A DNA stretch of 64,000 nucleotides, from positions 87,138 through 151,137 of the forward strand of contig CAYGTV010000001.1 of NCBI GenBank assembly GCA_964353135.1, in the 5' to 3' direction. The notes under the pieces are model-generated. The model was not told the DNA's origin. It saw only the letters and a list, made by a program, of their open reading frames with translations, and ran no database searches. Below, in pieces: positions 26,144-59,537 of this stretch (its first letter is position 1; every line of letters begins with the position of its first letter). The position numbers and the translations under genes were made by a program. This DNA comes from an uncultured Candidatus Saccharibacteria bacterium. Its GTDB lineage: Bacteria; Patescibacteriota; Minisyncoccia; Phycocordibacterales; UBA918.

Positions 26144-26164
26144 CCGTGCATAGAGTTGTCGTAA

Positions 26165-26686
<522 letters not shown>

Positions 26687-26689
26687 TAT

Positions 26690-27055: not shown

Positions 27056-27060
27056 TAATT

Positions 27061-28393: not shown

Positions 28394-28503
28394 AAGCCGA
28401 GTTCAGAAACTTTGGCAGCAGCACAAAAAACTATTTTAGGTTGCTGCCAGAGTTTCTGGGAAGAAAATTATTACCAAGGAAGATTACAAAAGAAACTATT
28501 ATT

Positions 28504-30282: not shown

Positions 30283-30292
30283 CTCCAAAAAT

Positions 30293-31690: not shown

Positions 31691-31692
31691 TC

Positions 31693-32331
31693 ATGGCTAT
31701 TCTAAAAGTTAACCCAACCCGAATTGCATTACTTGGACTCAAGAAAGAGCTCAAGACAGCCAAAAAGGGTCACAAACTACTCAAAGACAAGCGAGACGGA
31801 CTCGTGAAGAAATTCATGGCGGTTATTTATGAAGCCAAAGCAGTTCGTGAGAGCGTCGAAGCGCGCCTTGGTTCTGCGTTTGATTCATACACCCGAGCGA
31901 GCGCAATGACCAACGCAGCGTCACTTGATACGGCATTTTTGGCACCCAACGCCAAGATCGACCTAGACGTGAAAATTAAAAACGTGATGTCAGTGAAAAT
32001 TCCTGAGTTCCAAATCACTAAATCAGGGTCAGCCTTTTCGTACGGGATGCTTGAAACAACCGGTGACCTCGACAACGCAATGGTTAAATTTGATGAAGTA
32101 TTTGTCGACATTCTGAAATTAGCAGAGTTAGAAAAAACGGCTGAAAATTTAGCTGAAGAAATCGAAAAAACCCGGCGACGTGTGTCAGCGCTCGAAAACG
32201 TCCGTATCCCGAACTTTGAAGAGACAATTAAGTTCATCACCATGCAGTTGGATGAGCGCAACCGTGACGCTGTCGTTTCAACTATGCGAGTTAAGTCCAT
32301 GATTGTAGCTAAAGAAGAACAAACAGCTTAA
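31693..32331 (+). CDS. A/V-type ATPase subunit D
   Basis: A 212-aa coiled coil that is the last gene of the operon. Confidence 0.8.
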   Translation: MAILKVNPTRIALLGLKKELKTAKKGHKLLKDKRDGLVKKFMAVIYEAKAVRESVEARLGSAFDSYTRASAMTNAASLDTAFLAPNAKIDLDVKIKNVMSVKIPEFQITKSGSAFSYGMLETTGDLDNAMVKFDEVFVDILKLAELEKTAENLAEEIEKTRRRVSALENVRIPNFEETIKFITMQLDERNRDAVVSTMRVKSMIVAKEEQTA

Positions 32332-46900: not shown

Positions 46901-47256
46901 GGTACCGCGTGTTTGTTGACTTTTCTGGTGATTTAGTGAATTCCTATGGTGACACAATCGCCAGCTTGGCAAGCACCAACGCTGCCCCCGCTACCTGGGA
47001 GTCACAGTGTACCGGTGCCACTACTGGCTGCTTTGGGTATCATGCTGGAGACAATTCACTCTATGATGGTTCGGTCCGTTTTGCCGTTGACAACTCATAC
47101 GCTGGTATTGAACCTGGGTTAGTTGAGGTTATGTCGAGTAACATCCCCGTGACGTTTGACGTGAGCGACATCATATATAGGACTCGGGTAGGGTTCTTGC
47201 AACCAGCGGGTGAGTACAATACTACGGTACGTTATATAGTAGTGCCTATATTCTAA
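40909..47256 (+). CDS. giant secreted/surface protein with internal repeat domains
   Basis: 2115 aa with an N-terminal signal/TM (FCSFVLVFTLLSADLFVVL). It has recurring blocks (TQ.NYHWRNDDG.ETGA.SATGG.ENTP and YCFR.TDAG.PL..YTNYPE) and is Thr/Ser/Gly/Asn-rich with little Cys. Confidence 0.7.
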   Translation: MASLMGNNARSWLYKFCSFVLVFTLLSADLFVVLERGFFIASQAEAAVGDFSVFRETTGTEVIAGTGNNVSWDTSVAASANIALQANTSDIDLADGGKYLVLYNSWTHEGSTGGANRRSVASYVAVNGSASEYGWGGGYIRDAENDFNAYNSGAAILDVTAGDDITVVLDRDDSNPGGGTAIRGGTNGVSILKLDDDLDYLRVHSSAGVSDISSNTSFNVVDWDTADEVDAGSFTFAAPASGVVVKGATDQKFLVTSNVKLNVTGGGGPRQNYEMRLTLDGVEVPGTRSTAYLRFDNGDVNSTLQYTGIIQKTSAADQTLAVEVRREGQAAATTAIVGDQTALAIAALPATAQVLSLTTTADESLTSAPSTMSFGSQLSTASSFLSHSTTTASDNIVVDTAGNYLVLATTYTSRISGNGRDVPRIDWRLDGSTQPYGGHGHYNRGDEGTEDTYTSGGSSGAIFPSLTSGQIIELAQSDETSGTPVSDFPAGRVAVQVVELSELIPQTSTDVSVNGSQVATLAPNTSNVNLGEQFVISENNGARNVTNITLSEDGTIAADTGLANIRLYYDLDTSAPYDCTSESYVGTENQFGATSTFSGADGSVSFTSSETISPTQSMCLYVVADVTASASDGQTVNVFIASPATDVVVTAGGTVSPVSSVGNSASTITDAEITQTNYHWRNDDGSETGATSATGGIENTPGLAFAAATPQRLRIGVAGEGTGTEVNSYRLEFAEKITTCDAATGWESVDTVGGAWDVFDSVNLIEGGNTTNIAEVDGGVSDGTGTFVTPNGGVRDATSQTAALSITADDFTELEYSIQATGAAIEGLAYCFRVTDAGSPLRAYTNYPEATLSADVTVAASGSYIASVVAGATDVYLGGQFIAVSNSGNHTLTEIILTEVGTLDAGQYLTNPRLYYEGDATNPRDCASESFDGLETIAAGTAFTDANGTTTFTVSSPVRTNESFCAYIVVDVADTAPDSETITFEISTPNTDLTIAGATIGPGSAVAPSGSVIVNAPSLTQGNYHWRNDDGTETGASSATGGVENTPMNGVLQESQRRLRLAVSNDGNADAVGTDLRLEYGTKVTTCENVGSWERVDTGVAFDMDVTSQLVQGNDTTDILEGDGGVNNPNTFLSPNSAQLETVDQLTLATLTNTQYIELEYALEITAASAFSATYCFRLTDAGVPLSTYTNYPELTIQDRQDFIVQRGTETVSGTGVTLTAGVDYVAPASNSAAFVRITNTSMTGAGSDTLGQTRVPEDVFAYIEGGDNLTTSFSIVRPPAATDNTRVSWEIVEYIGITGADNEFILRDAGTVTYGTSALFATGTPVVGIADDNDVVVFITGQYNPDGNVNNYNTGLSISSWDTTGDQPVFERGDADGVAARVSYAVVEFTGASWAVQRAQHTFTAAGVAETESITAVNSLLRTFVHAQKISGDELFNLDESGHEVWLSSIGAVSFQLENGATNPGQQTSVAWVVENTQIGDGSMMVYRSNGLIAQGGVQPITTVLGIGGTIRPSNASLWATNRSTGGGSAHPRALLGATILNETQYELWKSDEGQNQNFRVEIVEWPVAETSIRQAVYRLYADNDALTPTDPWPAGANDLGENTPMTDIDEPLGEGEQTRIRMSLFINNATLISDSTSFKLQYGRRVTTCSAVSTWDDVGPSGSGSVWRAVDATPVGGTELLGGASLLLSVSDVAGTYEENSPSAVNPNTVDIGEYVEYDWIVENNAAIQKSSYCFRMTESDGAVLDGYDVYPTVRTSGYTPVIENWRWYDDEGSLTPTVALAGENVAPSALQNGSEVKLRVSVTEVEGAPGENVKFNLQYSEYPDFRVASTVNATTSCDGNDLWCYVDGAGNDNQTLDATVLSGVDSCAAGVGNGCGTHNEAEGISGLYDQPAFSISEHEFTLRHDGARVNTVYYFRLFDATNGVPLFASTSFPSVTTEGAVLTFTVSGIDAGQTTEGIITDATTTASGVNFGSLTMDTDTEAAQRLTVFANGTQGYRVFVDFSGDLVNSYGDTIASLASTNAAPATWESQCTGATTGCFGYHAGDNSLYDGSVRFAVDNSYAGIEPGLVEVMSSNIPVTFDVSDIIYRTRVGFLQPAGEYNTTVRYIVVPIF

Positions 47257-47439: not shown

Positions 47440-47511
47440 TCCGACGTAGCTCAGCGGTAGAGCAGTTGACTGTTAATCAATTGGCCGCAGGTTCGAATCC
47501 TGCCGTCGGAG
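47440..47511 (+). tRNA. tRNA-Asn (anticodon GUU), no encoded CCA
   Basis: The cloverleaf was folded by hand. Acceptor TCCGACG/CGTCGGA, D-arm GCTC-AGCGGTA-GAGC, anticodon arm GTTGA-CTGTTAA-TCAAT, T-arm GCAGG-TTCGAAT-CCTGC and discriminator G. Confidence 0.85.
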
Positions 47512-47547
47512 CTTTTGTAAAGAATAGTTAAGAAAAGTCTAGTTTAG

Positions 47548-48003
47548 ATGCTAGGTTTTTCTTGTATACTGGTAAATATGGAAATTAGAAACTACAATCC
47601 AGAAACTGATTATCCAGGCATTGAAGCCCTTTTGAGTGCCGAGGGTACTTTTGGTGGTCAGTTTGATGAAGCTAGAGATACTAAAGAGCGAATCGATGCT
47701 TTAGAAAGTACCAAACCAGGTAGTGTTCTAGTAGCAGAAGAGGATGGAGAGATCCTGGGCACAGTGACGCTTTTTGAAGATGGTCGATCTGCTTGGCTCT
47801 ATAGGTTTGCAGTCCAGCAAGACAATGAGACTGAAATAACAAAGCTTCTCAATGAAAAAGCTCTTCAGACAATGAAAGATCGTGGACATACTCAAGTTTT
47901 AGTTTACGCTCCCACTGGCGATCGACACTTTGAAGACCGATACACTTCACTTGGTTTTAATAAAGGAGGTGATTACACTGCCTACTGGCAAGATATTGTA
48001 TGA
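47548..48003 (+). CDS. GNAT-family N-acetyltransferase
   Basis: Acetyl-CoA-binding core of a GNAT (ILGTVTL...AWLYRFAVQQD...). The protein is ~140 aa if started at the ATG at 47578. Confidence 0.55.
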   Translation: MLGFSCILVNMEIRNYNPETDYPGIEALLSAEGTFGGQFDEARDTKERIDALESTKPGSVLVAEEDGEILGTVTLFEDGRSAWLYRFAVQQDNETEITKLLNEKALQTMKDRGHTQVLVYAPTGDRHFEDRYTSLGFNKGGDYTAYWQDIV

Positions 48004-48139
48004 AATCAGAAAAATTAATCTGCAATAGTTCGAATATTACCTATGACAAGGGTTACATAGCTCTTTGGTGTAAAGAATATGATCTACCAGACACTGTAGA
48101 AATTGATGGTGATACACTGCTTAAGAAAGACCATTTAGT

Positions 48140-48802
48140 ATGACAGTAGATTCTGCCATAAAAACCGTCTGGGACTATATGCATATGAATCATCAGCTCA
48201 AGAAAGCTGATACAATTATGGCTTTGGGTAGCTACGATATTCGGGTAGCAGAACACGCTGCAAAGCTATGGCTGGATGGATGGGCACCGTATCTTGTGTG
48301 TGCAGGATCAGGAACTGTACATAGCAATTCAGCGGTCTGGCAGGGGTTTGTAGGTTCTACGGAAGCAGAAATTTTTGCAGATGTGGCTCGTAAAGCTGGT
48401 GTCCCAGATGATGTGATACTGATTGAAAATAAATCACAAAATACTGGTCAAAATTATGAGTTTACATTGAACCTGCTTAATGAGAAAAACTTAGATGTAA
48501 AAAGTATTATCGCAGTACAGAAACCTTTTATGGAACGACGTACGTATGCGACAGGTAAGGTCTGGCTGCCTGAAGATATTGAATTAATTGTAACTTCGCC
48601 AAATCTGTCCTTAGACGAATATCCTAACGAAATCATAAGTCAGAATAATCATTGGATACACAATATGATCGGAGATCTGCAGAGGGTGAAAGAATACCCA
48701 GCTAAAGGCTTCCAAATTCATCAAGATATTCCAGATGAAGTTTGGGAAGCGTTCGAATTTCTAGTCAAAGAAGGATATTCTGATAATTTGCTTAAAGATT
48801 AA
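48140..48802 (+). CDS. DUF218 (YdcF/ElyC-like) domain protein
   Basis: Pattern ...ADTIMALGS...LVCAGSG...VILIENKSQNTGQN... typical of DUF218. Confidence 0.55.
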   Translation: MTVDSAIKTVWDYMHMNHQLKKADTIMALGSYDIRVAEHAAKLWLDGWAPYLVCAGSGTVHSNSAVWQGFVGSTEAEIFADVARKAGVPDDVILIENKSQNTGQNYEFTLNLLNEKNLDVKSIIAVQKPFMERRTYATGKVWLPEDIELIVTSPNLSLDEYPNEIISQNNHWIHNMIGDLQRVKEYPAKGFQIHQDIPDEVWEAFEFLVKEGYSDNLLKD

Positions 48803-48804
48803 CT

Positions 48805-49458
48805 ATGACACCAGATAACAATGCATTAGAACGAACATATTTTATAGGTGGACCACCTAGAGTTGGTAAAACTACTTTGGCTTATAAACTGGCTGAGGAT
48901 ATAAGGGGGCACGTTGCAATGACAGATGCAATCCGCAATTCAGCTAAAAAAGTATGTGAAGACAAGGCAGGTCCGTTGTTTATGATCAATCACTACAATG
49001 AATTCAGTGAAGAGAAATGGCTGAACCGCTTTGCGAATAACCCTGATCAGGTTGTCAAAGATCAAATTAACGAATCGAAAGCCATTTGGCGTTCTGTTGT
49101 TTCGTTCTGCAATATGTTCTGTGAGGATAATGCCAATCATATTGTTGAAGGGGTAGCAGTTATGCCTGAACTAGTAGCCTCAATGGACAATAAGCCTGAT
49201 CACGTAGTTTTTGTTGGTAATACTAGCGAGCACCACGTTGAAACAATGTTGCAGTATGGAAAAGATAATCCTGAACAATGCTGGATGGCGTATCTGGGGT
49301 ACAGTGAGGACCGAATCAGAGCTTTTGCAAATTACGTTTTGCATATGAGTCAACATTTCAAAGATGAAGCTGATAAATATGGCTTTAGCTATGTGGAGCT
49401 TTCAGATGATAATTTCGAGCAATCGCTCCAAGAAGCGATTAACTCGCTAAAGAAGTAG
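48805..49458 (+). CDS. P-loop NTPase/kinase (AAA_33-like)
   Basis: Walker A IGGPPRVGKTTLA and a Walker B-like HIVEGVAV. Translationally coupled to the upstream gene. Confidence 0.55.
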   Translation: MTPDNNALERTYFIGGPPRVGKTTLAYKLAEDIRGHVAMTDAIRNSAKKVCEDKAGPLFMINHYNEFSEEKWLNRFANNPDQVVKDQINESKAIWRSVVSFCNMFCEDNANHIVEGVAVMPELVASMDNKPDHVVFVGNTSEHHVETMLQYGKDNPEQCWMAYLGYSEDRIRAFANYVLHMSQHFKDEADKYGFSYVELSDDNFEQSLQEAINSLKK

Positions 49459-49583
49459 GAGCGAGTATTTGTATATCAGACTCAATTGAACGCCAATTGA
49501 TTGTTCGAAAAGCTTCCAACTGGCAGAGCCTTTGTAAAGAAAAGTGAAGTAACACCCTGATGCTCCTTTAAAACTAGAGGGTT

Positions 49584-50369
49584 TTGTGCTTCAATTTATC
49601 GATGATTATTGATATTGGGTCAGGTCACCAACCACATCCTCAGGCAGATGTGCTGCTAGATATTCATGATGAGCATGGTTCTCATAGGTGGTCCAAAAAA
49701 TTACAATCTGACCGACCTACAGTCATCTACGAGGGGAAAACTTTTCCGTTTATTGATAATGCTTTTTTGTACTCTGTCTGTAAGCATGTACTGGAGCATG
49801 TAGATGACCCGGCACACTTTCTTAATGAGATCAGTAGGATTTCTACTGCAGGTTACATTGAAACACCATCAGAATTATCAGAATTGATATTTACACCTTA
49901 TGCACTGCACAAGTGGGTGGTTCACAAAAAGGGTGAGGTGCTCATTATAAAAAACAAAATTAATGCGAATGTTTCCAAATGTGGCAAGTTGTTTGACTAT
50001 CTCTGCGATAATGAACCCGGTTTTGATGAGTATTTCTACTTGAGCAGAAGACGTCTTTTTCTCACAGAATATTGGTGGACGGAAGCAGTATTGTTTGAAC
50101 TTGTTGAAGAAAATGACTCTACTTTTGAGAACTATAATGACGAACAAACACTTCTCAATATATCAGAAAGAAACAATGTTGATTATCAAATCGAAATACC
50201 TCCAGAGCACTTGAGTCAAAAACCCTCTGATATATTCCAAGAATTATCTAGGGTGCTCTGCTCACCGTGCTGCTCGAATAAGGTTGAGTATAAGGAAGAA
50301 TCATATCAATGCATCAAATGTGGTCATGTATACAAAAAAGACGGGAACCAGATCTTGTTTATTCAGTAG
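49584..50369 (+). CDS. class I SAM-dependent methyltransferase with a C-terminal zinc ribbon
   Basis: Motif I IIDIGSGHQP and a post-I acidic motif VLEHVDDP. C-terminal CSPCC...CIKCGH. The ORF-track start is a TTG at 49584; the ATG at 49602 is an alternative. Confidence 0.55.
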   Translation: MCFNLSMIIDIGSGHQPHPQADVLLDIHDEHGSHRWSKKLQSDRPTVIYEGKTFPFIDNAFLYSVCKHVLEHVDDPAHFLNEISRISTAGYIETPSELSELIFTPYALHKWVVHKKGEVLIIKNKINANVSKCGKLFDYLCDNEPGFDEYFYLSRRRLFLTEYWWTEAVLFELVEENDSTFENYNDEQTLLNISERNNVDYQIEIPPEHLSQKPSDIFQELSRVLCSPCCSNKVEYKEESYQCIKCGHVYKKDGNQILFIQ

Positions 50370-52614
50370 CCACTTTCAGTTGTTTGATGAATTTCTCAGC
50401 AACACTATCAATGTATTGAAAAATTTCTGTAAATGAACTCGATTCAGTGTGCGGGTTCCCAAGAGTAACACCCAACACCCTAAAACGATCTCTTTTGTCT
50501 GTGAGAAGCCTTTTGACATCAAAAATGTCAAAAGTGTGAATACAGATTATACCGTCTTGGTAAATTTCATCATGAATCATCTTGTTCAAGTCACTAATCA
50601 CTTTTGATTTCTCAGTAGAGCCAAGATCAATTTTATGCGTTGACACTGAAAACACCACGCTGTTTAACTCAACTTCGTTAAGTGTGCAAAAATATTTCGA
50701 TGTCTCTACTGACTTGTGCCAGCTCTTTGCGAGCTCATAACGATAGTCGACTAACTCACCAATACCCTTAGTTCCTAAATGCTTTATGAAAAACCAAAGT
50801 TTTAGACTGTCGAATGGTCGACTTCCCATAAACGGGGTTATTTGACCAAGATCGAACGAATCTTTTTTTATTGTGATATCTGTTGATTTGCTGAATAGAT
50901 CTGTATTTTCTATATCCTTAAATAAAACTGCACTAGCAGAATACGGTATACACAGGCCCTTGTGTGGATCAATTGAGATTGAATCTGCTCTTTCTATGCC
51001 TTTTATGCGCTCTCTGTGATTGTTGGAAAATATAAGTACCCCGCCATGACATGCGTCCACGTGGAGCCAAACTCTTTTTGTCTCGCAGATATCAGCTATT
51101 TTGTTAAAGTCCTCTATGGTTGTTGTTCTCGAATCACCAGCTTGGCTAACAACAGCGACAACTTTAGAGGTGACTCCGTTATCATACTGATTAATTTTTT
51201 CAACCAAGTCATCACAATCGATTCTATAGTCTTCGGAATTATTTACGTACACTATGTTGTCCTCTCCCATACCAAGCCACCAAAATGACGCAATATGCGA
51301 GTAGTGATAGAAGGTCTCAGATGCGACAATCAATATCGGCTTCAACTTGCTAGCGTTCAGGCCACTTTTACGAGAATCAGGAAAACTTTTGCACCTAGCT
51401 GCTAACAAAGCTGTTGCATTAGCTAGAGTACCGCCGGTCGTCATGATACCTCCAGCTTCTTGAGCTCTTTTTGGGAAACCACTTTTTACATCGTAGCCAA
51501 TGAGTTCCCGCAACCACTTTATAACTTGAATTTCTGCGAAGGTTGCCGAGGGACCACTTTTAGTTGTTGCAATTAAATTTTGATTAGTAAAATTTTCTAG
51601 TATTGAGGCAGATAGTGCTGCGATTGAATTCCCGGCATCTGGGAAAGCAAGATAGTTTGGATGAGCTTGGTGTATAGATGAACTGTAAATTTTATTGGTG
51701 TATTCTTTAAGAATTATACCCATTTCCTTACCTAATTCAGGAGCTGGTTCGTCAAAACCTCCGATCAACTCCTCCTCGGTTTTGTAATCGATTACTTTTT
51801 CTGGGTTTACAATAAACTCTACACCCATCTCAAGAGCTCTATAAAGAGCTTCAGTGCTTGATTGTGTAGTAGTTTTTCCTAAAAATTTATTTTTTATGTC
51901 AAAGATGCGCTTTGAGGTCAGTTCAGGCAGCTCCAAAAACGCCTTTGTTCTATCAATAAAAAGCCAATTTTCTTCAACAGATAAAATTCTTTTTGAAACT
52001 AGTTGATTGGTTACAGTGCCGAAAATATTTTCGATATAATTACTAGTTTCTTTTGAGTTTACAAATCCTAGCGACTCTTTGCCGCTGTTTAGAAGTAGGT
52101 TTATAATTTTTTCTTTTGTAAATTGATCGCTATTAGTAGACAAAAGTAGAAGAAGAACTACCGTTGAGAAAGCTTGAACTCGATCGAGTTCAAATTCCTT
52201 CATATCTCCAATTAACATCTGATTTGGTCCGGCCAATGCGCACAACCATTGTCTGTATTGATTAAAGCCCGACCAATCTAATGGACCTATTTGATCTACG
52301 ATTACCGAATCGTCCGTCTTTATATGGCCATATCCTCGTATAGATTTCTGCAACTCAAGCCAAGAAATGTATTCTCCTGCATATTGGAGATCTGGTACTA
52401 GCCCGTTTTCGTTATGATACTTCACAAACCACTTTTTAAATGAAGTCACTTCCTGCAGCGGTGCACTTTTGTGAAAAACACACATTAAATCAATATCGCT
52501 ATCCTTTCGCTGTTCTTTTCTTGCTCTCGAGCCAAATACTAGACAGTATTTTAAACTATCAGAAAAATGTTTCTCTGCTGCAACCTTTAAATCGTTTAAA
52601 ATTTTATCTGTCAT
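50359..52614 (-). CDS. fusion of a minimal nucleotidyltransferase (Pol-beta superfamily) with a PLP-dependent group II decarboxylase
   Basis: N-terminus ...YCLVFGSRARKEQRKDSDIDLMCVF has the GS...DxD NTase motif, followed by a helical region. The C-terminal ~480 aa has the PLP-Lys motif SISIDPHKGLCIPYSASAVLF (S-x-x-x-HK, typical of group II decarboxylases). Confidence 0.6.
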   Translation of the reverse strand: MTDKILNDLKVAAEKHFSDSLKYCLVFGSRARKEQRKDSDIDLMCVFHKSAPLQEVTSFKKWFVKYHNENGLVPDLQYAGEYISWLELQKSIRGYGHIKTDDSVIVDQIGPLDWSGFNQYRQWLCALAGPNQMLIGDMKEFELDRVQAFSTVVLLLLLSTNSDQFTKEKIINLLLNSGKESLGFVNSKETSNYIENIFGTVTNQLVSKRILSVEENWLFIDRTKAFLELPELTSKRIFDIKNKFLGKTTTQSSTEALYRALEMGVEFIVNPEKVIDYKTEEELIGGFDEPAPELGKEMGIILKEYTNKIYSSSIHQAHPNYLAFPDAGNSIAALSASILENFTNQNLIATTKSGPSATFAEIQVIKWLRELIGYDVKSGFPKRAQEAGGIMTTGGTLANATALLAARCKSFPDSRKSGLNASKLKPILIVASETFYHYSHIASFWWLGMGEDNIVYVNNSEDYRIDCDDLVEKINQYDNGVTSKVVAVVSQAGDSRTTTIEDFNKIADICETKRVWLHVDACHGGVLIFSNNHRERIKGIERADSISIDPHKGLCIPYSASAVLFKDIENTDLFSKSTDITIKKDSFDLGQITPFMGSRPFDSLKLWFFIKHLGTKGIGELVDYRYELAKSWHKSVETSKYFCTLNEVELNSVVFSVSTHKIDLGSTEKSKVISDLNKMIHDEIYQDGIICIHTFDIFDVKRLLTDKRDRFRVLGVTLGNPHTESSSFTEIFQYIDSVAEKFIKQLKVATE

Positions 52615-52616
52615 AT

Positions 52617-53447
52617 TTAACGAGTTAAAATATACTGATCCTGTGAGCTGAGATTCAGGTCATGAATCACTGAAAAATCTGTTTTAGTAAAACCGTCATA
52701 AGAATGCGCATCTGAACCGAAGACGAACTTACCGCCATATTTTAAGTATTCAATAAGAAAAGCCTGGTCGTTCGTTTTTAGCTGGCCAGTCTCGTACATA
52801 TTGTATTTCCACTGGTCATAAGAAGGATATTTTTTTCCATTGATTTCAAAATAAATATTATGGCCTGACTCCCATTCCGACTTAAATAAGTTAAGGATGT
52901 AGTGGATCTCCTCAGTGTTAAAGTTTTCAGAGAAATGTCCATGGATGGCTTGAAAGGGGTGTGCAAAAATATCAATACTTTTATTTTGGATAAGTGCCTT
53001 AATATTTTCCATCAAAAAACTTCGCTTTGATGCATTGTCATTATTGGTCCTTGAATACTCCTCTTGAAAACTTTCTGAATGAATTGCTCCAAGTAATATA
53101 TCGACACCAAATTTATCACTTTCTTTTCCGGTGATGCCTTGGGCTAATCTGAGAGATCCATCAATATTCACTTCAACTTCTAGTCCTGAGAATATATCAA
53201 TTTTATTTTTGTATCTATCTCTAAGACTGTTAATTTGGTTGAGATACTCTGAAAAAACCTCGTCGTCATCAAAAAAGACAGATTCTGTTCCGTCGGCGTT
53301 AAACCAGCCGCATGCATGATCTGTGATTATTATTGACTTAATTCTTAGCTGAATGGCTTGGGTGACCATTTCCTCTAGAGAGTTTTTACCGTCAGAAAAT
53401 TTACTATGTATCTGAACATCCTGCCTCTTTAGAAAGTCGTTTAACAT
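52617..53447 (-). CDS. PHP-domain phosphoesterase (HisK/CpsB-like)
   Basis: N-terminal IHSKFSDG...IIITDH metal-binding motifs of the PHP family. Confidence 0.6.
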   Translation of the reverse strand: MLNDFLKRQDVQIHSKFSDGKNSLEEMVTQAIQLRIKSIIITDHACGWFNADGTESVFFDDDEVFSEYLNQINSLRDRYKNKIDIFSGLEVEVNIDGSLRLAQGITGKESDKFGVDILLGAIHSESFQEEYSRTNNDNASKRSFLMENIKALIQNKSIDIFAHPFQAIHGHFSENFNTEEIHYILNLFKSEWESGHNIYFEINGKKYPSYDQWKYNMYETGQLKTNDQAFLIEYLKYGGKFVFGSDAHSYDGFTKTDFSVIHDLNLSSQDQYILTR

Positions 53448-53523
53448 ATAGATAATTTACCTTAATACAGTATTTAAACAAGAAACTTCAGCAAGTAGTT
53501 CTGAAATAGACTCCCAGTTTAAT

Positions 53524-53638
53524 GTTCGAAACTCATCCAGCTGAGAGAGCGAGCAGAAAAACCCTTATTTATAAGGGTTTTTCTTATGCTCGCGACGACG
53601 GAAGAACAATCTGGGAGATTGTTCTGTCAGGATTCGAA
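53524..53638 (+). repeat. repeat module copy 0 (degenerate)
   Basis: GTTCGAAACTCATCCAGCTGAGAGAGCGAGCA box, an AAAAACCCTTA-ttta-TAAGGGTTTTT terminator hairpin, a second hairpin GAACAATC-tggga-GATTGTTC, then GATTCGAA. Confidence 0.45.
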
Positions 53639-53704
53639 AAGCTTTTGAGGTAGATTCGACCAGAGGAAGAATATATCCAAAAGGTATACTGGTCATGTAA
53701 TGAC

Positions 53705-53726
53705 CGAAATTCCTGCCGTCGGAGCA
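53705..53726 (+). repeat. direct repeat of the tRNA-Asn 3' end (putative att-site copy)
   Basis: CGAAATTCCTGCCGTCGGAGCA versus the tRNA 3' end CGAATCCTGCCGTCGGAGCT. There is a 15/15 exact core and 19 of 21 positions matching with a 1-2 nt indel. Confidence 0.6.
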
Positions 53727-53796
53727 GACAAAAATACTCTTGTTTTGCAGGGGTATTTTTAGTTTAGATTCATACCCCGAAGACGACGGTTCGAAC
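53705..53796 (+). repeat. repeat module copy A
   Basis: Box (the tRNA-3'-like DR), an AAAAATACTCTTG-tttt-CAGGGGTATTTTT hairpin, then GGTTCGAAC at 53788. Confidence 0.5.
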
Positions 53797-53816
53797 TTTT
53801 GGTATGATTAGAATAT

Positions 53817-54353
53817 ATGAAAAAAGTCGTCGTCGGATCTAACAACCCTGTAAAACTCAAAACAACAAAAGAAGCATTTACTTTACGATTTCCAGAGGAA
53901 ACTTTTGAATACATTACTTTTTCCGCGCCATCAGGTGTCTCAGATCAACCCATGAGTTCAGAGGAAACTAAGAAAGGCGCTTTAAATCGTGCTTTGGCTT
54001 GCAAGCAGGAATATCCAGACGCTGATTATTATATTGGACTAGAGGGCGGTATTGAAGCGATAGAGGGGCAGTATTGGGTATCTGCTTGGATGTGTATAGT
54101 CGATGGAAACAAAAAACAAGGATTTGGAAGAACTAGTGCCTTTTTACTTCCTAGTCGGGTGTGTAAATTGATTGATCAAGGTGAAGAACTTGGTACCGCC
54201 ACTGACATTGCTTTTAATGAAGTTAATTCAAAACATAAAGGAGGTGCTGTAAGCGCTTTAACAGATGAACTTGTGACCCGAAAAGATTTTTATAGAGATG
54301 CTATTATTTTTGCCCTCATACCTTTCTGTAAAACAGAGTTATATAGCCAGTGA
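53817..54353 (+). CDS. YjjX-family non-canonical NTP pyrophosphatase (inosine/xanthosine triphosphatase-like)
   Basis: N-terminus KVVVGSNNPVKL and ...YYIGLEGGIE...WMCIVDG... match the NTPase_I-T family pattern. Confidence 0.55.
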   Translation: MKKVVVGSNNPVKLKTTKEAFTLRFPEETFEYITFSAPSGVSDQPMSSEETKKGALNRALACKQEYPDADYYIGLEGGIEAIEGQYWVSAWMCIVDGNKKQGFGRTSAFLLPSRVCKLIDQGEELGTATDIAFNEVNSKHKGGAVSALTDELVTRKDFYRDAIIFALIPFCKTELYSQ

Positions 54354-54362
54354 GTCGTTTTT

Positions 54363-54470
54363 CTATACAAAAGTTCGAACATCCTCCACCCAGCGGAGCA
54401 GTTAAAAATAACCTTATTTTATAGGGTTATTTTTTATTTAAATCTATACCCTTGAGGGCAATGTTCGAAC
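54363..54470 (+). repeat. repeat module copy B
   Basis: CTATACAAAAGTTCGAACATCCTCCACCCAGCGGAGCA box, an AAAAATAACCTTA-ttt-TAGGGTTATTTTTT hairpin, then GTTCGAAC at 54463. Confidence 0.55.
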
Positions 54471-54620
54471 TTCTAGTACGCGTGCCACAGATATGATGGT
54501 GAATTAATACCATATTCATTGAAAAAGAAATAAATCTGTGTCATTGTGCAGTCAGACAATCCTGTCTAAAACTGGCGGAATGCTAGTTCTTTCACATCTT
54601 ACGGAATGTAGGAGATACCA

Positions 54621-55619
54621 ATGAAACCGACGGCACAGAAGAACCAAAAACTTATTGCTCAATATCCATTTCTTAAAGAAATGATTACAGCACCATTCGA
54701 ACCCATTTCACCCGGTGTTTTTGAAAAAGATACAGTCTCTGACCTGACTATCAAATTCGAACGGGCGGATGCTCATCTGATGTACCGACATGGCAAAAAT
54801 ACAGGACTAGAGAGCCGTAATGGTTCATGCAGCTGGTCTATGCCGATGGAAGGTCCTCGCAAGGGTCAGGCTGGTAAACGTGGACATCTATTGTTCGCCG
54901 TCGACCACTCCGGTAAAGTCATCAACGAGCTTGATTGGCAGGAAGAAAAGCCGAAAGAACCTATCTTTGGCTATCATGCGCTTTGGGGCAAGAAGCTTGG
55001 ACCAGACCATTTCACTGAATGTCTTTATGACCAAGTGAAGTATCTTGTTTGGGTAACTGTTGAAGCTTGGCACGAGTTCATCAAAGGTTTTGAGGATACG
55101 CCATTTGGCGACTTCATTGACCGTACGATGACTGTAACCATCTACTCAGCCCCAGAGCAAGGGTTCAGCAAACTGAGTGACGAAGCGAACGTCTACGACC
55201 ATCTATGGCTGGATGATGACGTCATGATGCGTGGCTCAATGCGTAATGACCATGACATCTTGCGTATCAATGGAATGTTGACCGAGCTTTGTCACCAATT
55301 CAAGACCGACGTATACGACAATGGCATGCGAGACGTGGCAGACTCTCATCCGAAGCATCGTATTGCCGCTAGCGGTCAGTTTGGCCCTGTCGAGGTGCTG
55401 GTTGCTGAAATGTGTGGCTATGAACGTATCCAACTGGATACCGACACGTGTCGTATCACATTTCAAATTAGACCTGACGCAACTAAAGCATACGTTCTTG
55501 CTATGCAAGGTCGTTTGCCACAGCTACGTGAAATAGTTCGAACAGTCATTGAATATTGGAACTACCGCGAAGGTGGTCGTTCTGACTTTTCCTACAATCA
55601 AGAAGTTTGCGTAGGATAA
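54621..55619 (+). CDS. hypothetical protein (332 aa)
   Basis: A long ORF with RBS GGAGATACCAATG and no recognised motif. Confidence 0.45.
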   Translation: MKPTAQKNQKLIAQYPFLKEMITAPFEPISPGVFEKDTVSDLTIKFERADAHLMYRHGKNTGLESRNGSCSWSMPMEGPRKGQAGKRGHLLFAVDHSGKVINELDWQEEKPKEPIFGYHALWGKKLGPDHFTECLYDQVKYLVWVTVEAWHEFIKGFEDTPFGDFIDRTMTVTIYSAPEQGFSKLSDEANVYDHLWLDDDVMMRGSMRNDHDILRINGMLTELCHQFKTDVYDNGMRDVADSHPKHRIAASGQFGPVEVLVAEMCGYERIQLDTDTCRITFQIRPDATKAYVLAMQGRLPQLREIVRTVIEYWNYREGGRSDFSYNQEVCVG

Positions 55620-55635
55620 TTAGTTCACTTTAAGT

Positions 55636-55672
55636 AGCCGCCTTCCCTAATTTGGGTGGGCGGCTTTTTCTT
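55636..55672 (+). terminator. intrinsic terminator
   Basis: AGCCGCC-loop-GGCGGCT followed by TTTTTCTTTTT. Confidence 0.5.
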
Positions 55673-55675
55673 TTT

Positions 55676-55770
55676 CATAAAAAGTTCGAACATCCTCCAC
55701 CCAGCGGAGCAAAGAAAATACCCTTGTTTTTCAGGGGTATTTTTTGTTACCCTCGGATAGGATTCGAACC
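55676..55770 (+). repeat. repeat module copy C
   Basis: CATAAAAAGTTCGAACATCCTCCACCCAGCGGAGCA box, an AAAATACCCTTG-ttttt-CAGGGGTATTTTTT hairpin, then GATTCGAACC. Confidence 0.55.
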
Positions 55771-55975
55771 GGGTAGATATTTACATAGTAGTAAGTATAG
55801 GTATACTGCACTTATTGGTCCTACCTGTAGGAAAAAGACAGTCTGTCATAATCGCTGTTGGGGATGCTTGAGAAAGCAAACTGACGGACTGTTTCAATGC
55901 TGGCAACCGAAACATTATAATCGAGTTTTGGTTAGTTTGGTCTCCAACAGCTGCTCATGTATAAGGAGATGTGCG

Positions 55976-56293
55976 ATGCCGCTAAATAAAGCTGGACGCA
56001 AAATCCTTAAGCGTCTTCGCCAAAAACACACAGGCAGGGGTTCGCGATTGCGTGCCGGAAGATATCAGTACCTTCTTTGTCCTTTTCATTATGAAGGAAC
56101 TGCATCTTGGTGCATAGACCTAAAAACAGGTCGGCACTATTGCTTTGGGTGTCACCAGCGTGGTGATATCTGGAATCTTGCAACGAACCAACCGGAGTTG
56201 TTAGGTCAACCCAAACCAAGAGATAGAAGAGAAGTACTGCCGCCACTTCCAATGGTTGATGGATTGCCTCACGATGATGATGTTCCTTTTTGA
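55976..56293 (+). CDS. small CHC2-type zinc-finger protein (primase-like zinc-binding domain only)
   Basis: LLCPFHYEGTASWCIDLKTGRHYCFGCHQRGDIWNL matches the DnaG-type CHC2 zinc finger (CPFH-x-E-x-T-x-S...CFGCG). AAGGAG lies 7 nt upstream of the ATG. The ORF-track ORF starting at 55652 reads through repeat module C and is rejected. Confidence 0.5.
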   Translation: MPLNKAGRKILKRLRQKHTGRGSRLRAGRYQYLLCPFHYEGTASWCIDLKTGRHYCFGCHQRGDIWNLATNQPELLGQPKPRDRREVLPPLPMVDGLPHDDDVPF

Positions 56294-56312
56294 GAGGTTT
56301 AAAACGTTGTTT

Positions 56313-56340
56313 CCGCCCAGCTTTGTTGGGCGGCTTTCTT
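56313..56340 (+). terminator. intrinsic terminator
   Basis: CCGCCCA-gctttgt-TGGGCGG followed by CTTTCTTTC. Confidence 0.5.
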
Positions 56341-56349
56341 TCATTTGGA

Positions 56350-56466
56350 TACTGAAAAGGTTCGAACATCCTCCACCCAGCGGAGCAGTAAAAATCCTTG
56401 AAAGGGGATTTTTCTTTTGCTCTGACGGAGAAAGTGACAGGAGTCACTTTCGTTGGGATTCGAAAT
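56350..56466 (+). repeat. repeat module copy D
   Basis: TACTGAAAAGGTTCGAACATCCTCCACCCAGCGGAGCA box, an AAAAATCCTTG-aaa-GGGGATTTTTC hairpin, a second hairpin AAAGTGAC-agga-GTCACTTT, then GATTCGAAAT. Confidence 0.55.
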
Positions 56467-56494
56467 CTTCCAAAGCCTTTGATATACTAAAATT

Positions 56495-56917
56495 ATGAAT
56501 AGATATGTCTTATATTTTGTTTTGTTTGCAATTGCCGTGACAATTGTCGCAGCGTTACTTTCTACTGATAATGAAGAGCCCGAAGTGGAATCAGTACAAG
56601 AAAGCACACCTGCTTTAGGTGAAGATTTTGCTAATAACATTGCCGAATCTGGTCGAGAACTACGGATTACCTATGAACACACGAAGCCAGGTGAATATAG
56701 TGAAATCTTCGTTGCTTTTACTGCTGCACAGCCTGGTGAAGATGTACAAGTTACCTTGCTAGGACCGGATACTGAACCTAATGTACGAACAGTTACCGCA
56801 GATGAAAATGGTAATGTCTACGAAGTATTCACTATTTATCAATTTGGACAATATAACTTTGAAGTTATTCCTGCCGTTAGTGGTTCACGCTTTAGCTCCT
56901 CGATTATTGTTGAGTAG
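56495..56917 (+). CDS. secreted/membrane-anchored hypothetical protein
   Basis: N-terminal TM MNRYVLYFVLFAIAVTIVAALL, then a 110-aa soluble domain. Confidence 0.45.
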   Translation: MNRYVLYFVLFAIAVTIVAALLSTDNEEPEVESVQESTPALGEDFANNIAESGRELRITYEHTKPGEYSEIFVAFTAAQPGEDVQVTLLGPDTEPNVRTVTADENGNVYEVFTIYQFGQYNFEVIPAVSGSRFSSSIIVE

Positions 56918-56977
56918 ATCTGAATTTCCCCCGCCCAGTGGAGCAAGACATAAAAACACCCGCCGGGTGTTTTTATG
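56918..56977 (+). repeat. repeat module copy E (degenerate, lacks the GTTCGAAC head)
   Basis: GATCTGAATTTCCCCCGCCCAGTGGAGCA box, then an AAAAACACCCG-c-CGGGTGTTTTT terminator. Confidence 0.4.
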
Positions 56978-57034
56978 TGTGCAACTGTTTTGAGTCTTTG
57001 GTATACAGGCTACAATAAGGCTAAGGAGCACAGT

Positions 57035-57535
57035 ATGCAATTTAGCAAAAAAGACGTGGTTTTATACGGGGTATTAATGACGCTGGTTTTAGGTGTCTGC
57101 ACGATGGCAGTTCACGCCAGAATACAGCCTCCGGTCGCGACCCCGCTAGCTCTCTCAAACGCCAGATTGTCTAGTGATCCACTCGCGCAAACGCAACAAA
57201 TTAAAGCGGAAATTACCAAAGTATTTGCGCCCCTTGAGCCGGCCATACCAGGAGTAGTTGAAGCGATGATTCGGATTGCTGATTGTGAATCATATGGTGG
57301 GCCAGATGGCATGTTGATGCACGTTGGACCCGATGGTGAGCTCGTTGAAAACCCACGCTCATCAGCGACGGGAGTATTCCAGGTGTTGCTGTACACCCAT
57401 CGGGATGATTACGAAGCTCTGGGACTCGACCCGCGCAGTGTGCTTGATAACATCAAATTTGCCCGCAAGCTGGTTGAGCGACGGCATATACAAGGTGTAG
57501 ATCCATACGCAGATTGGGAATGCTCACCTGACTAA
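57035..57535 (+). CDS. secreted protein with an Rpf/transglycosylase-like muralytic domain
   Basis: Signal peptide MQFSKKDVVLYGVLMTLVLGVCTMAVHA. The C-terminal domain has DCES...GVFQVL...DWECS motifs resembling the transglycosylase-like domain (CES...GlQF...W..C). AAGGAG lies 6 nt upstream of the ATG. Confidence 0.5.
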   Translation: MQFSKKDVVLYGVLMTLVLGVCTMAVHARIQPPVATPLALSNARLSSDPLAQTQQIKAEITKVFAPLEPAIPGVVEAMIRIADCESYGGPDGMLMHVGPDGELVENPRSSATGVFQVLLYTHRDDYEALGLDPRSVLDNIKFARKLVERRHIQGVDPYADWECSPD

Positions 57536-58868: not shown

Positions 58869-58976
58869 TTGTTCGTGAAAGAAACAAAGAAGTCGTGCGT
58901 CATAGAGGGCGGGAGGAATTGATGTTTGGAGGAACGTCTTGTCCTGAAATGTACAAAACAAAAATGGAAGAGAAGA

Positions 58977-59537
58977 ATGAAATATCGTCTAAAGGTAGTG
59001 CTATTCGTAGCTGCTGTTAATTTTGTAGCATCATGTGGAGCTTCAAATGTGACAGCAGACGACGAGTTACTTCCTGTGGTTGCAGAGGAATTGGTTGCAA
59101 TACCTTCTATGACAGCAGCACCAGTAAGCGCTACAAGCGTACCTGAGATGTTGTCTCACCCGCTTATGGTTTCAAATGAAAATCTCTCATCTGATCCAGG
59201 TGAGCAGGCTGTGCAAATTGCAACAATGCTCAGGGTTGTGTTTGAGCCACTGGAACCAAGCTTTCCAGGGGTTGTTGACAGAATTATTGATGTTGGAGAT
59301 TGTGAGTCTGGTTTGAACCAGCTTGAGCCAGATGGCAGGCTCAGGGTTAATCCCGATCCCAAATCCTCGGCTGGTGGAGCATTGCAAGTGCTGCTAAACA
59401 CACACAAACCTGACTATTTGCGGGTTGGATTAAATCCACGGGAAGCTCCAGACAATCTAATTTTCGGACGCTTCCTCGTTGAGCGCAAGCTACGCCAAGG
59501 TCGGCGTAACCCATTAGAAGACTGGGTATGTGCATAA
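58977..59537 (+). CDS. lipoprotein paralog with an Rpf/transglycosylase-like muralytic domain
   Basis: Lipobox FVASC after MKYRLKVVLFVAAVN. C-terminal DCES...GALQVL...DWVCA aligns with the 57035 protein (PGVV..II...DCES, VLL.TH..DY, LVER). The ATG at 58977 was chosen. Confidence 0.5.
   Translation: MKYRLKVVLFVAAVNFVASCGASNVTADDELLPVVAEELVAIPSMTAAPVSATSVPEMLSHPLMVSNENLSSDPGEQAVQIATMLRVVFEPLEPSFPGVVDRIIDVGDCESGLNQLEPDGRLRVNPDPKSSAGGALQVLLNTHKPDYLRVGLNPREAPDNLIFGRFLVERKLRQGRRNPLEDWVCA

What the first reader, a model, noticed from the sequence alone, without database searches (positions are those of the whole stretch)
47512..53726. AT-rich ~6.2 kb genomic island inserted at tRNA-Asn and bounded by a direct repeat of the tRNA 3' end
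The tRNA-Asn 3' end (CGAATCCTGCCGTCGGAGC, 47493-47511) recurs at 53705-53726 as CGAAATTCCTGCCGTCGGAGCA, with a 15-nt exact core. This is the classic attL/attR signature of an element integrated into a tRNA gene. The intervening DNA is visibly more AT-rich than the flanking chromosome (by eye, not computed). It encodes accessory-type functions: a GNAT, a DUF218 protein, a P-loop kinase, a methyltransferase, an NTase-PLP decarboxylase fusion and a PHP phosphoesterase. No integrase is present in the interval, so this is either a decayed island or one mobilised in trans.
Basis: partly seen in the sequence, partly recalled or inferred. Interest (0 to 1): 0.7.

Follow-up and report, generated by a model that had tools for sequence, protein, structure and literature searches.

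The report
Gene-cassette array behind tRNA-Asn
The AT-rich block is a real insertion right after a tRNA-Asn gene in a tiny-genome (Patescibacteria) bacterium. It is only the newest part of a 9.4 kb row of small gene cassettes that appear to be stacked there by a serine recombinase encoded elsewhere, much as an integron collects genes.

Summary
tRNA-Asn lies at 47440-47512, and its 3' 15-mer recurs exactly once, at 53711-53725. The interval has 38.1% GC against 46.7% outside, about 10 SD lower.

The interpretation needs correcting on three points.
- Two related metagenome contigs (L127, L128) are precise empty sites. They place the insertion at 47513-53550 (6038 bp).
- The insertion ends in a different repeat, c3 (53525-53550).
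- The insertion is two cassettes. It belongs to an array of six cassettes plus that module (47513-56944). Each cassette ends in a 26-nt site, TTCGAA-N5-YCC-N7-GRAGC, which is the tRNA 3' end with 5 extra bases.

The same architecture follows tRNA-Asn in many Paceibacteria contigs: 83 cassettes in 44 loci, median 810 nt. Six filled/empty pairs put every junction right after ..GAGC.

In relatives, ~8 kb elements carrying a large serine recombinase (LSR) use the same junction and end in the same site type. The 5-bp offset matches the published attP/attB rule for serine integrases.

This is a new variant of tandem serine-recombinase islands (SCC and ssrA-GI type).

The parts
47440..47512 (+). tRNA-Asn(GTT). 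Its last 21 nt, TTCGAATCCTGCCGTCGGAGC (47492-47512), act as the attB-type left half-site. Insertions start at 47513.
47513..49529 (+). Cassette M1 (2017 bp, GC 0.40). It has a conserved left arm TTTTGTAAAGAATAGTTAAG ('K-arm'), then GNAT (47548-48003), DUF218 (48140-48802) and a P-loop kinase-like gene (48805-49458). It ends in site c2, TTCGAAAAGCTTCCAACTGGCAGAGC (49504-49529).
   Evidence: A c2-type 58-nt site is followed by a different right arm in L091.
49530..53550 (+). Cassette M2 (4021 bp, GC 0.37). It has a second K-arm, CTTTGTAAAGAAAAGTGAAG, then a SAM methyltransferase (49602-50369, +), an NTase-PLP-decarboxylase fusion (50359-52614, -) and a PHP phosphoesterase (52617-53447, -). It ends in site c3, TTCGAAACTCATCCAGCTGAGAGAGC (53525-53550).
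53551..53725 (+). Conserved tRNA-downstream module, which is the native right arm of the tRNA site. It holds a terminator hairpin (~53556-53583), an inverted tRNA-3'-like segment interrupted by a hairpin (~53588-53642), and the direct tRNA-3' copy c4 (53706-53725).
   Evidence: It is 94% identical over 254 nt to the sequence directly following tRNA-Asn in L127. It is also present in L128, L135, L095 and L105.
53726..54399 (+). Cassette M4. It has a terminator plus the arm ..CCCCGAAGACGACGGTTCGAACTTTT, then inosine/xanthosine triphosphatase (53817-54353). It ends in S1 site c5 (54374-54399).
   Evidence: The same arm follows the intact tRNA in L007.
54400..55710 (+). Cassette M5. It carries a 332-aa protein with no family match (54621-55619) and ends in S1 site c6 (55685-55710).
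   Evidence: The Logan contig L002 spans exactly c5 to c6.
55711..56386 (+). Cassette M6. It carries a 105-aa CHC2 zinc-ribbon (DnaG-type) protein (55976-56293) and ends in S1 site c7 (56361-56386).
   Evidence: A 79%-identical homologue sits in another array, L135, in a different neighbourhood.
56387..56944 (+). Cassette M7. It carries a 140-aa protein with a hydrophobic N-terminus and no family match (56495-56917). It ends in the degenerate site c8, TCTGAATTTCCCCCGCCCAGTGGAGC (56919-56944).
   Evidence: An intact S1 site sits at the orthologous position in L127, just before the p186 orthologue.
56975..57535 (+). First backbone gene after the array (p186). It marks the distal limit of the variable region.
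   Evidence: It is 80% identical (aa) in L127 and 59% in L004. In both it is downstream of tRNA-Asn, with different cassettes in between.

Best explanation
The organism is a Patescibacteria (class Paceibacteria) bacterium. The position immediately after the last base of its tRNA-Asn gene is an entry point for site-specific insertion. Each inserted unit is a segment that begins with a conserved right arm (terminator and/or promoter-like sequence). It carries one to three genes and ends in a 26-nt site, TTCGAA-N5-YCC-N7-GRAGC.

That site copies the tRNA 3' end (TTCGAA-YCC-N7-GGAGC) with 5 extra bases between the TTCGAA motif and the rest. I read the tRNA end as the attB-type left half-site and the N5 site as the attP-type left half-site of a large serine recombinase (LSR). 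Exchange would occur within or next to GAGC.

In this window, two cassettes (47513-49529 and 49530-53550) make up the AT-rich 6.0 kb block. They lie in front of the native downstream module and four older single-gene cassettes, giving a 9.4 kb array (47513-56944). None of the units encodes a recombinase. I infer they were inserted, and can perhaps be moved, by an LSR supplied in trans by ~8 kb LSR-bearing elements. Those elements use the same junction in related genomes.

Shown here: the insertion, its exact ends, the site family, the array architecture in many genomes, and LSR elements with the same ends.
Inferred: that the LSR is the enzyme for the small cassettes, the exact crossover dinucleotide, and that insertion is proximal-first.
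For: 1. Exact empty sites. In L127 and L128 the sequence runs tRNA..GGAGC|GAGCAGAAAAACCC. In the window it runs tRNA..GGAGC|TTTTGTAAAG ... GAGAGC|GAGCAGAAAAACCC, and the right flank is 94% identical over 254 nt.
2. Four further filled/empty pairs show the same rule. The insert starts after ..GRAGC of the tRNA or of an N5 site and ends with its own N5 site. The sizes are 524 nt (L004 vs L135), 1714 nt (L084 vs L124), 3233 nt (L023 vs L031) and 1283 nt (L127 vs L117). Junction sequences were read for the 524- and 1714-nt pairs only.
3. L166 carries an ~8.3 kb element with a 537-aa LSR. It lies between tRNA-Asn..GGAGC|AAGATAGAAC and GGTTCGAACGTCCTCTACCCAGCGGAGC|CAGGAATAAATCCCC. L135 has the same flanks and is empty.
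4. LSR genes (Resolvase + Recombinase + Zn_ribbon_recom) abut the junction in convergent orientation in L012, L120, L024 and L101, and lie ~430 nt from a tRNA-Asn 3' end in L042.
5. The 5-nt offset between the N5 sites and the tRNA matches the published rule for serine integrases. The zinc-ribbon-domain motif lies 5 bp closer to the crossover in attB than in attP (PMC3783163, read).
6. A metagenome scan with the S1 28-mer found 53 contigs. In every one of the 12 that also carry tRNA-Asn, the tRNA is upstream of the site and on the same strand.
7. In the 28 loci with two or more sites, all sites in a locus share one strand. Across 44 loci there are 83 cassettes, median 810 nt, and the longest ORF is co-oriented with the site in 68 of 83.
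8. Site subtypes and arm types recur in different species next to unrelated genes.
9. None of the cassette genes is found downstream of tRNA-Asn in 79 orthologous loci.
10. The inserted block differs strongly in composition from the flanks.
Against: - No LSR, or any other recombinase, lies in the 64 kb window. The rest of the source genome could not be read.
- Canonical LSRs recombine only attP with attB. In a tandem array, new units must enter at a hybrid site (tRNA half plus an element-derived right arm), or at an N5 site as in L084 and L101. Well-studied serine integrases do not do this without a directionality factor.
- The right arms are diverse and show no obvious dyad partner for the TTCGAA motif.
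- No free circular cassette, and no free attP, was recovered.
Confidence: 0.65

Rival explanations
1. Decay model. Each unit is the stump of a once complete ~8 kb LSR element that integrated at the tRNA and then lost its recombinase module by deletion. Nothing is mobilised in trans, and the array is a graveyard.
For: Complete LSR elements with the same ends exist. Dehalococcoides ssrA islands include recombinase-less members interpreted partly this way (PMC3146451). Sites c2, c3 and c8 in the window are degenerate.
Against: There are 83 units with a median of 810 nt, each still carrying both a conserved left arm and an intact right site. A 524-nt unit is present or absent as a clean insertion between otherwise matching flanks. 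The same arm types (K-arm, ATTGACA arm, terminator arm) recur in front of unrelated genes in different species. Random internal deletions would not preserve this.
Confidence: 0.2
2. Homologous-recombination model. The ~30-120 nt conserved site-plus-terminator blocks serve as homology arms. Genes between them are swapped after DNA uptake, and no site-specific enzyme is involved.
For: Sites c5, c6 and c7 share 32 identical bases. Site-plus-arm blocks are 71-94% similar over ~95-250 nt. L135 has the same 48-nt terminator after two different sites.
Against: In the window, and in the L004 and L084 pairs, the left junction partners (tRNA end and N5 site) differ by a 5-nt indel and many substitutions. 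Only GAGC is shared at the breakpoint. The LSR elements use the identical breakpoint.
Confidence: 0.08
3. This is a classic tyrosine-integrase genomic island whose attL and attR are the tRNA 3' end and its displaced 15-22 nt copy at 53705-53726.
For: The exact 15-mer repeat is statistically unexpected. The block has a foreign composition.
Against: The copy at 53711-53725 and its surroundings are present directly after the tRNA in genomes lacking the island. The true right end is 53550. No tyrosine recombinase was detected in the window by Pfam. None was detected in the 135 related loci held at the time by phmmer.
Confidence: 0.03
4. The 26-nt sites are transcribed tRNA-like 3'-UTR elements (processing or stability signals), or integron attC sites used by an IntI-type integrase.
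For: The sites sit at the 3' ends of genes, just before terminators. The cassette size range and ORF co-orientation resemble integrons.
Against: Rfam finds nothing there. The sites are insertion end-points. They lack the paired inverted core sites of attC. No IntI or other tyrosine recombinase was found. The cassettes carry promoter-like sequences of their own.
Confidence: 0.04

Closest known systems
Dehalococcoides ssrA-specific genomic islands (ssrA-GIs; McMurdie et al. 2011, PMC3146451)
   Same: - Several tandem islands lie downstream of a single-copy small-RNA gene.
- Each island is bounded by a repeat of that gene's 3' end.
- A ~540-aa serine recombinase sits on the reverse strand next to attL.
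- A conserved non-target motif lies just upstream of each repeat.
- Some islands lack the integration module.
   Different: - The target here is tRNA-Asn, and insertion is after its last base rather than in the T-loop.
- The units are far smaller: about 0.5-6 kb, often one gene, against the multi-gene islands, many with a six-gene integration module, described there.
- The repeat is a 5-nt-expanded mimic, not an exact 20-bp copy.
- The host phylum is Patescibacteria.
Staphylococcal cassette chromosome (SCC / pseudo-SCC) arrays at rlmH (orfX), moved by the CcrAB/CcrC serine recombinases (own knowledge, plus the comparison drawn in PMC3146451)
   Same: - Large serine recombinases insert cassettes at the 3' end of a conserved gene.
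- Composite tandem arrays form.
- Recombinase-less cassettes are flanked by the same sites and are thought to be moved in trans.
   Different: - The target is a protein-coding gene and the units are much larger.
- No tRNA mimicry is involved.
- No arrays of many single-gene units are known there.
Tycheposon-built islands next to tRNA genes in Prochlorococcus (Hackl et al., bioRxiv 10.1101/2020.12.28.424599)
   Same: - Variable islands next to tRNA genes are built by repeated integration, which pushes older elements inward.
- Partial-tRNA repeats and degenerate remnants are scattered through the island.
- A minority of the elements use large serine recombinases.
   Different: - 910 of the 937 elements use tyrosine recombinases.
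- The repeats are true partial tRNAs.
- The elements are larger and carry replication modules.
- No uniform 26-nt site ends each gene.
Integrons (IntI, attI, attC cassettes)
   Same: - One fixed entry point is followed by a same-strand array of mostly single-gene cassettes of about 0.5-1.3 kb.
- Each cassette ends in a conserved recombination site, and the ORFs are co-oriented.
   Different: - No tyrosine IntI is present.
- The sites are not attC-like.
- The entry point is a tRNA end.
- The cassettes have their own promoter-like and terminator sequences.
- The associated enzyme is a serine recombinase encoded on separate elements.

Membership tests
tDNA-integrated genomic island (Islander definition: tyrosine integrase, regenerated tRNA, displaced tRNA fragment) | An intact tRNA gene at one end | tested here: met
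   tRNA-Asn 47440-47512 scores 76 bits against Rfam.
tDNA-integrated genomic island (Islander definition: tyrosine integrase, regenerated tRNA, displaced tRNA fragment) | A displaced fragment of the same tRNA marks the other end | tested here: not met
   The true right end (53525-53550) is a mimic with a 5-nt insertion and many substitutions. The exact fragment at 53711-53725 pre-exists in empty sites.
tDNA-integrated genomic island (Islander definition: tyrosine integrase, regenerated tRNA, displaced tRNA fragment) | An integrase gene inside the island | tested here: not met
   Pfam and phmmer find none in the interval or in the whole window.
tDNA-integrated genomic island (Islander definition: tyrosine integrase, regenerated tRNA, displaced tRNA fragment) | An empty site in relatives, and foreign composition | tested here: met
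   L127 and L128 are empty sites. GC lies 10 SD below the flanks.
Large-serine-recombinase integrative element (attP x attB) | A recombinase with Resolvase + Recombinase + zinc-ribbon domains, encoded next to the att site | tested here: not met
   It is absent from the window. It is present at the same junction type in relatives L012, L120/L166, L024 and L101, and ~430 nt from it in L042.
Large-serine-recombinase integrative element (attP x attB) | The attP half-site carries the distal motif 5 bp farther from the crossover than attB does | tested here: met
   The distance from TTCGAA to YCC-N7-GRAGC is 5 nt in c2, c3, c5, c6 and c7 (and in c8, whose TTCGAA is degenerate) and in every N5 site found in other contigs, but 0 nt in the tRNA. 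The rule comes from PMC3783163. This rests on sequence pattern only, and only for the left half-site.
Large-serine-recombinase integrative element (attP x attB) | Very short identity at the crossover (a 2-bp core, no long duplication) | tested here: met
   Only GAGC/GGAGC is common to the two junctions in the filled/empty pairs whose junction sequences were read.
Large-serine-recombinase integrative element (attP x attB) | Recombination activity and strict attP x attB partner choice | not testable with these tools
   This needs in vitro or in vivo assays. Insertions at N5 sites (L084, L101) suggest a looser partner choice.
Integron | An IntI tyrosine integrase next to the entry site | tested here: not met
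   No tyrosine recombinase lies in the window or next to tRNA-Asn in the loci examined. Outside the window the screen was of limited sensitivity.
Integron | attC sites with paired inverted core sites (R''/L'' ... L'/R') | tested here: not met
   The conserved part is a 26-nt asymmetric motif. The downstream TTCGAA partner is variable and lies within the next unit's arm.
SCC / ssrA-GI type tandem serine-recombinase islands | A tandem same-strand array at the 3' end of a conserved single-copy gene, with recombinase-less members | tested here: met
   The window array is 47513-56944. Arrays reach 10 sites in L119. Every locus with two or more sites has them all on one strand.
SCC / ssrA-GI type tandem serine-recombinase islands | Units are multi-gene islands, roughly 10-60 kb by my recollection, usually with an integration module | tested here: not met
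   The median unit is 810 nt. The window units are 0.56-4.0 kb and none has a recombinase. The 10-60 kb figure is from memory and was not read in the cited paper.

The most novel reading that the evidence does not exclude
Paceibacteria (candidate phyla radiation) carry an integron-like gene-capture platform built on serine-recombinase chemistry. The last bases of tRNA-Asn act as the fixed entry site. Promoter-bearing mini-cassettes of one to three genes each carry an attP-type half-site that mimics the tRNA end. Recombinases encoded on separate ~8 kb elements insert, stack and perhaps reshuffle them in trans. This would give these tiny genomes a dedicated hot-spot for accessory genes.
Probability: 0.4. 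Interest if true: 0.8.

Novelty: new variant of a known kind. Interest (0 to 1): 0.6.

Why it matters
Candidate-phyla-radiation bacteria have very small genomes, and little is known about how they gain and lose accessory genes. This work shows a precisely defined hot-spot behind tRNA-Asn, shared by many Paceibacteria species. It holds rows of small, self-contained cassettes with uniform ends.

If the serine-recombinase reading is right, this is a natural gene-stacking system with very short, well-defined sites. It would also be a natural illustration of the 5-bp attP/attB rule: the phage-side site is the host-side site plus 5 bp. That makes the partner-choice question for serine integrases directly testable with synthetic sites, and it could be useful for genome engineering.

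For annotation, it is a warning that an exact tRNA-end repeat is not necessarily the island boundary.

Tried and rejected
- Searching IMG/VR for the S1 site 19-mer (TCCTCCACCCAGCGGAGCA) found nothing.
- Searching IMG/VR with the single L120 LSR found nothing. With an LSR alignment, the best hit was only 44% identical (L140) and had just a weak site-like motif after the gene. No free attP was recovered.
- Rfam found no known RNA family at the sites.
- PADLOC gave only NTase-domain hits for the fusion protein, so there is no evidence for a known defence system.
- I tested whether the P-loop gene of M1 is functionally tied to M2 through the gene cluster in L136. The two ~216-aa proteins are unrelated.
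- A first fuzzy-regex scan timed out and was replaced by blastn-short and an nhmmer profile.
- Looking up the window's own proteins returned only short Logan contigs that break at the repeats. The 380 kb NCBI contig that carries the identical protein could not be fetched.
- I rejected the idea that the extra copies are random decay products of the local tRNA end. The subtypes are conserved across species, and all share the same 5-nt spacing.


Full report
**1. What is in the sequence**

The window holds one tRNA gene, tRNA-Asn(GTT), at 47440-47512 on the + strand. Its 3' 15-mer, TCCTGCCGTCGGAGC, recurs exactly at 53711-53725 and nowhere else in 64 kb, even allowing two mismatches. Shuffles predict 0.1 matches.

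The interval between the two copies is AT-rich. GC of 47513-53550 is 0.381, against 0.467 +/- 0.0086 in 171 equal-sized windows outside the array. The tetranucleotide distance is 0.329 against 0.133 +/- 0.023, and GC3 of the genes is 0.28-0.38.

- a GNAT acetyltransferase;
- a DUF218 protein;
- a weak P-loop kinase-like protein;
- a SAM methyltransferase;
- a 751-aa nucleotidyltransferase-PLP decarboxylase fusion;
- a PHP phosphoesterase.

Pfam scans of essentially all ORFs of at least 120 aa, plus phmmer with serine and tyrosine recombinase seeds, find no recombinase anywhere in the window.

**2. The repeat is a family, not a pair**

Repeat finding, pattern searches and a profile search show at least eight same-strand copies of a tRNA-3'-end-like motif. 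All lie between 47.49 and 56.94 kb:

| Copy | Coordinates | Note |
|---|---|---|
| c1 | 47492-47512 | the tRNA end itself |
| c2 | 49504-49529 | |
| c3 | 53525-53550 | |
| c5 | 54374-54399 | identical to c6 and c7 |
| c6 | 55685-55710 | identical to c5 and c7 |
| c7 | 56361-56386 | identical to c5 and c6 |
| c8 | 56919-56944 | degenerate |

- c5, c6 and c7 all read TTCGAACATCCTCCACCCAGCGGAGC.
- Apart from the tRNA and c4, the copies fit TTCGAA-N5-YCC-N7-GRAGC (the TTCGAA is degenerate in c8).
- That is the tRNA end (TTCGAA-YCC-N7-GGAGC) with five extra bases after TTCGAA.
- Each copy sits just after a gene or gene group and is followed by a terminator-like hairpin.

**3. Host and comparative loci**

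The neighbouring genes are cellular. They include HisRS, a UvrD/AddA-type helicase-nuclease, a V/A-type ATPase operon, Fpg and UDG.

A genome scan with Fpg returned 79 loci from Patescibacteria MAGs (Paceibacteria, Kaiserbacteria, Nomurabacteria). The closest has 88% amino-acid identity. In many of them tRNA-Asn lies next to Fpg. None of the cassette genes of the window occurs downstream of tRNA-Asn in any of these loci.

**4. Exact empty sites and the true boundaries**

Metagenome contigs L127 and L128 read tRNA..GGAGC|GAGCAGAAAAACCCTTATTTATAAGGG. The window reads tRNA..GGAGC|TTTTGTAAAG at 47512/47513, and ..CAGCTGAGAGAGC|GAGCAGAAAAACCC at 53550/53551. From 53551 the window is 94% identical to L127 over 254 nt.

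The insertion is therefore 47513-53550 (6038 bp), and it ends in c3.

The module consists of a terminator, an inverted tRNA-3'-like segment and a direct tRNA-3' copy. It follows the intact tRNA in genomes without the island (L127, L135, L095, L105). This insertion did not create it.

Inside the insertion, c2 is followed by a second copy of the arm that follows the tRNA: TTTTGTAAAGAATAGTTAAG after the tRNA and CTTTGTAAAGAAAAGTGAAG after c2. A c2-type 58-nt site occurs in L091 followed by a different arm. The block is therefore two units.

**5. The same rule elsewhere**

An all-against-all comparison gave further filled/empty pairs, of 524, 1714, 3233 and 1283 nt. Each insert starts right after ..GRAGC of the tRNA or of an N5 site and ends in its own N5 site. 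In the pairs whose junction sequences I read (524 and 1714 nt), only GAGC is shared at the two junctions.

A metagenome scan with the 28-mer of c5-c7 found 53 contigs:
- Thirteen carry a tRNA.
- In twelve of those it is tRNA-Asn, and it is always upstream of the site on the same strand.
- L119 has nine N5 sites after its tRNA-Asn.
- In the 28 loci with two or more profile hits, all sites in a locus share one strand, and the median spacing is 804 nt.
- Across 44 loci there are 83 cassettes, with a median of 810 nt and an interquartile range of 540-1279.
- The longest ORF is co-oriented with the site in 68 of 83.

Site subtypes and arm types recur in different species next to unrelated genes. 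Homologues of two window cassette genes (the CHC2 protein at 79%, DUF218 at 67%) sit in other arrays with different neighbours.

**6. The enzyme**

Large serine recombinase genes (Resolvase + Recombinase + Zn_ribbon_recom, ~530-540 aa) abut the junction in convergent orientation in L012, L120, L024 and L101. In L042 the gene lies ~430 nt from a tRNA-Asn 3' end.

L166 is the clearest case:
- Its tRNA-Asn is identical to the window's. It is followed by ..GGAGC|AAGATAGAAC, then the recombinase gene and ~8.3 kb of element.
- The element ends in GGTTCGAACGTCCTCTACCCAGCGGAGC|CAGGAATAAATCCCC.
- L135 has the same flanks and is empty.

So the N5 site is the element-side left half-site (attP-type), and the tRNA end is the chromosomal one (attB-type). 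The 5-nt difference is what Rutherford et al. 2013 described for serine integrases: the zinc-ribbon-domain motif lies 5 bp closer to the crossover in attB than in attP (PMC3783163).

The recombinase family is large. There are 4156 proteins with E <= 1e-30, and sources name several of them as Patescibacteria proteins.

**7. What remains inferred**

- No recombinase was found in the window, and I could not read the rest of the genome.
- No free circular cassette or free attP was recovered.
- Tandem growth and insertions at N5 sites (L084, L101) need a looser partner choice than textbook serine integrases show.
- Rival readings cannot be excluded: decayed stumps of full elements, or homologous exchange between the conserved blocks. 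Clean presence/absence of a 524-nt unit, intact conserved ends on 83 small units, and breakpoints with only 4-5 shared bases all argue against them.

**8. Cargo**

- 53817-54353 passes the NCBIfam cut-off for inosine/xanthosine triphosphatase.
- The PHP gene and the NTase-PLP-decarboxylase fusion form a conserved pair. They are 50-53% identical to a pair in L136, which lies beside a glycosyltransferase and a sulfotransferase and directly after a tRNA-Gln. I read this, with low confidence, as a small-molecule or surface-modification module.
- No known defence system was recognised.

**9. Comparison and verdict**

In the library searched, I found no description of such arrays in Patescibacteria.

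The closest known systems are:
- the tandem ssrA islands of Dehalococcoides, which carry a ~540-aa serine recombinase next to attL;
- SCC and pseudo-SCC arrays in staphylococci;
- more loosely, tycheposon-built tRNA islands in Prochlorococcus;
- integrons, by function only.

This locus differs from them in its very small, promoter-bearing cassettes, in the tRNA-mimic site with the 5-bp expansion, in the entry point after the last base of tRNA-Asn, and in the host phylum.

I file it as a new variant of a known kind. It works like an SCC/ssrA-GI array, but it fails the size and recombinase-content features of those families.

Noticed in passing
L127 4983-5256 (- strand); also L042 ~9580-9860 and L117 1910-2164: In several relatives tRNA-Asn is split in the anticodon loop (CTGT|...|TAATCAA) by a ~290-nt group I intron (Rfam RF00028, 85 bits in L127). 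The window's tRNA-Asn has none. The Logan contig L001 starts exactly at the intron insertion point (47474), which suggests an intron-bearing relative co-occurs in that sample.
   Followed up: partly
window 40909-47256: A 2115-aa repetitive protein gene lies between Fpg and tRNA-Asn. In most relatives the tRNA is only 0.2-1.8 kb from Fpg and this gene is absent. It is present in L010, L016, L024 and L062. The side upstream of the tRNA is therefore variable too.
   Followed up: partly
window 53492-53642 and the equivalent after tRNA-Asn in L135 6580-6490: The tRNA-type end ..CCGTCGGAGC, a terminator hairpin and an inverted copy GCTCCGACGG..CAGGATTCGAA form a long interrupted palindrome. If the terminator were extruded, the two halves would abut as a symmetric site. 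Its role is unknown.
   Followed up: no
L012 7945-9573, L120 81-1718, L024 1374-2948, L101 1197-2993: The serine recombinase reading frames run without a stop through the att site. The last residues (..LRRQDSNLRP in three cases, ..LRWVEDVRT in L101) are encoded by the complement of the tRNA end or of the N5 site. Integration would therefore change the protein's C-terminus.
   Followed up: no
L136 8948-14648: A homologous PHP + NTase-PLP-decarboxylase pair lies directly after a tRNA-Gln in an unrelated genome, together with an HTH gene, a GT2 glycosyltransferase and a sulfotransferase. This may be another tRNA-adjacent island carrying the same cargo module.
   Followed up: partly
window 55652-56293, 56256-56498, 56781-56993: Long mechanical ORFs here contain the peptide FEHPPPSGA or similar. 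This is just the translation of the repeated S1 site, so these ORFs are probably not genes.
   Followed up: yes
window 56975-57535 and 58926-59537: These two nearby genes of unknown function (186 and 203 aa) both match the same single gene in L004, at 59% and 50%. They appear to be paralogues just beyond the array.
   Followed up: no
window 24191-32331: A V/A-type ATPase operon (subunits I, c, C/AC39, A, B, D) is present in this Patescibacteria genome.
   Followed up: no
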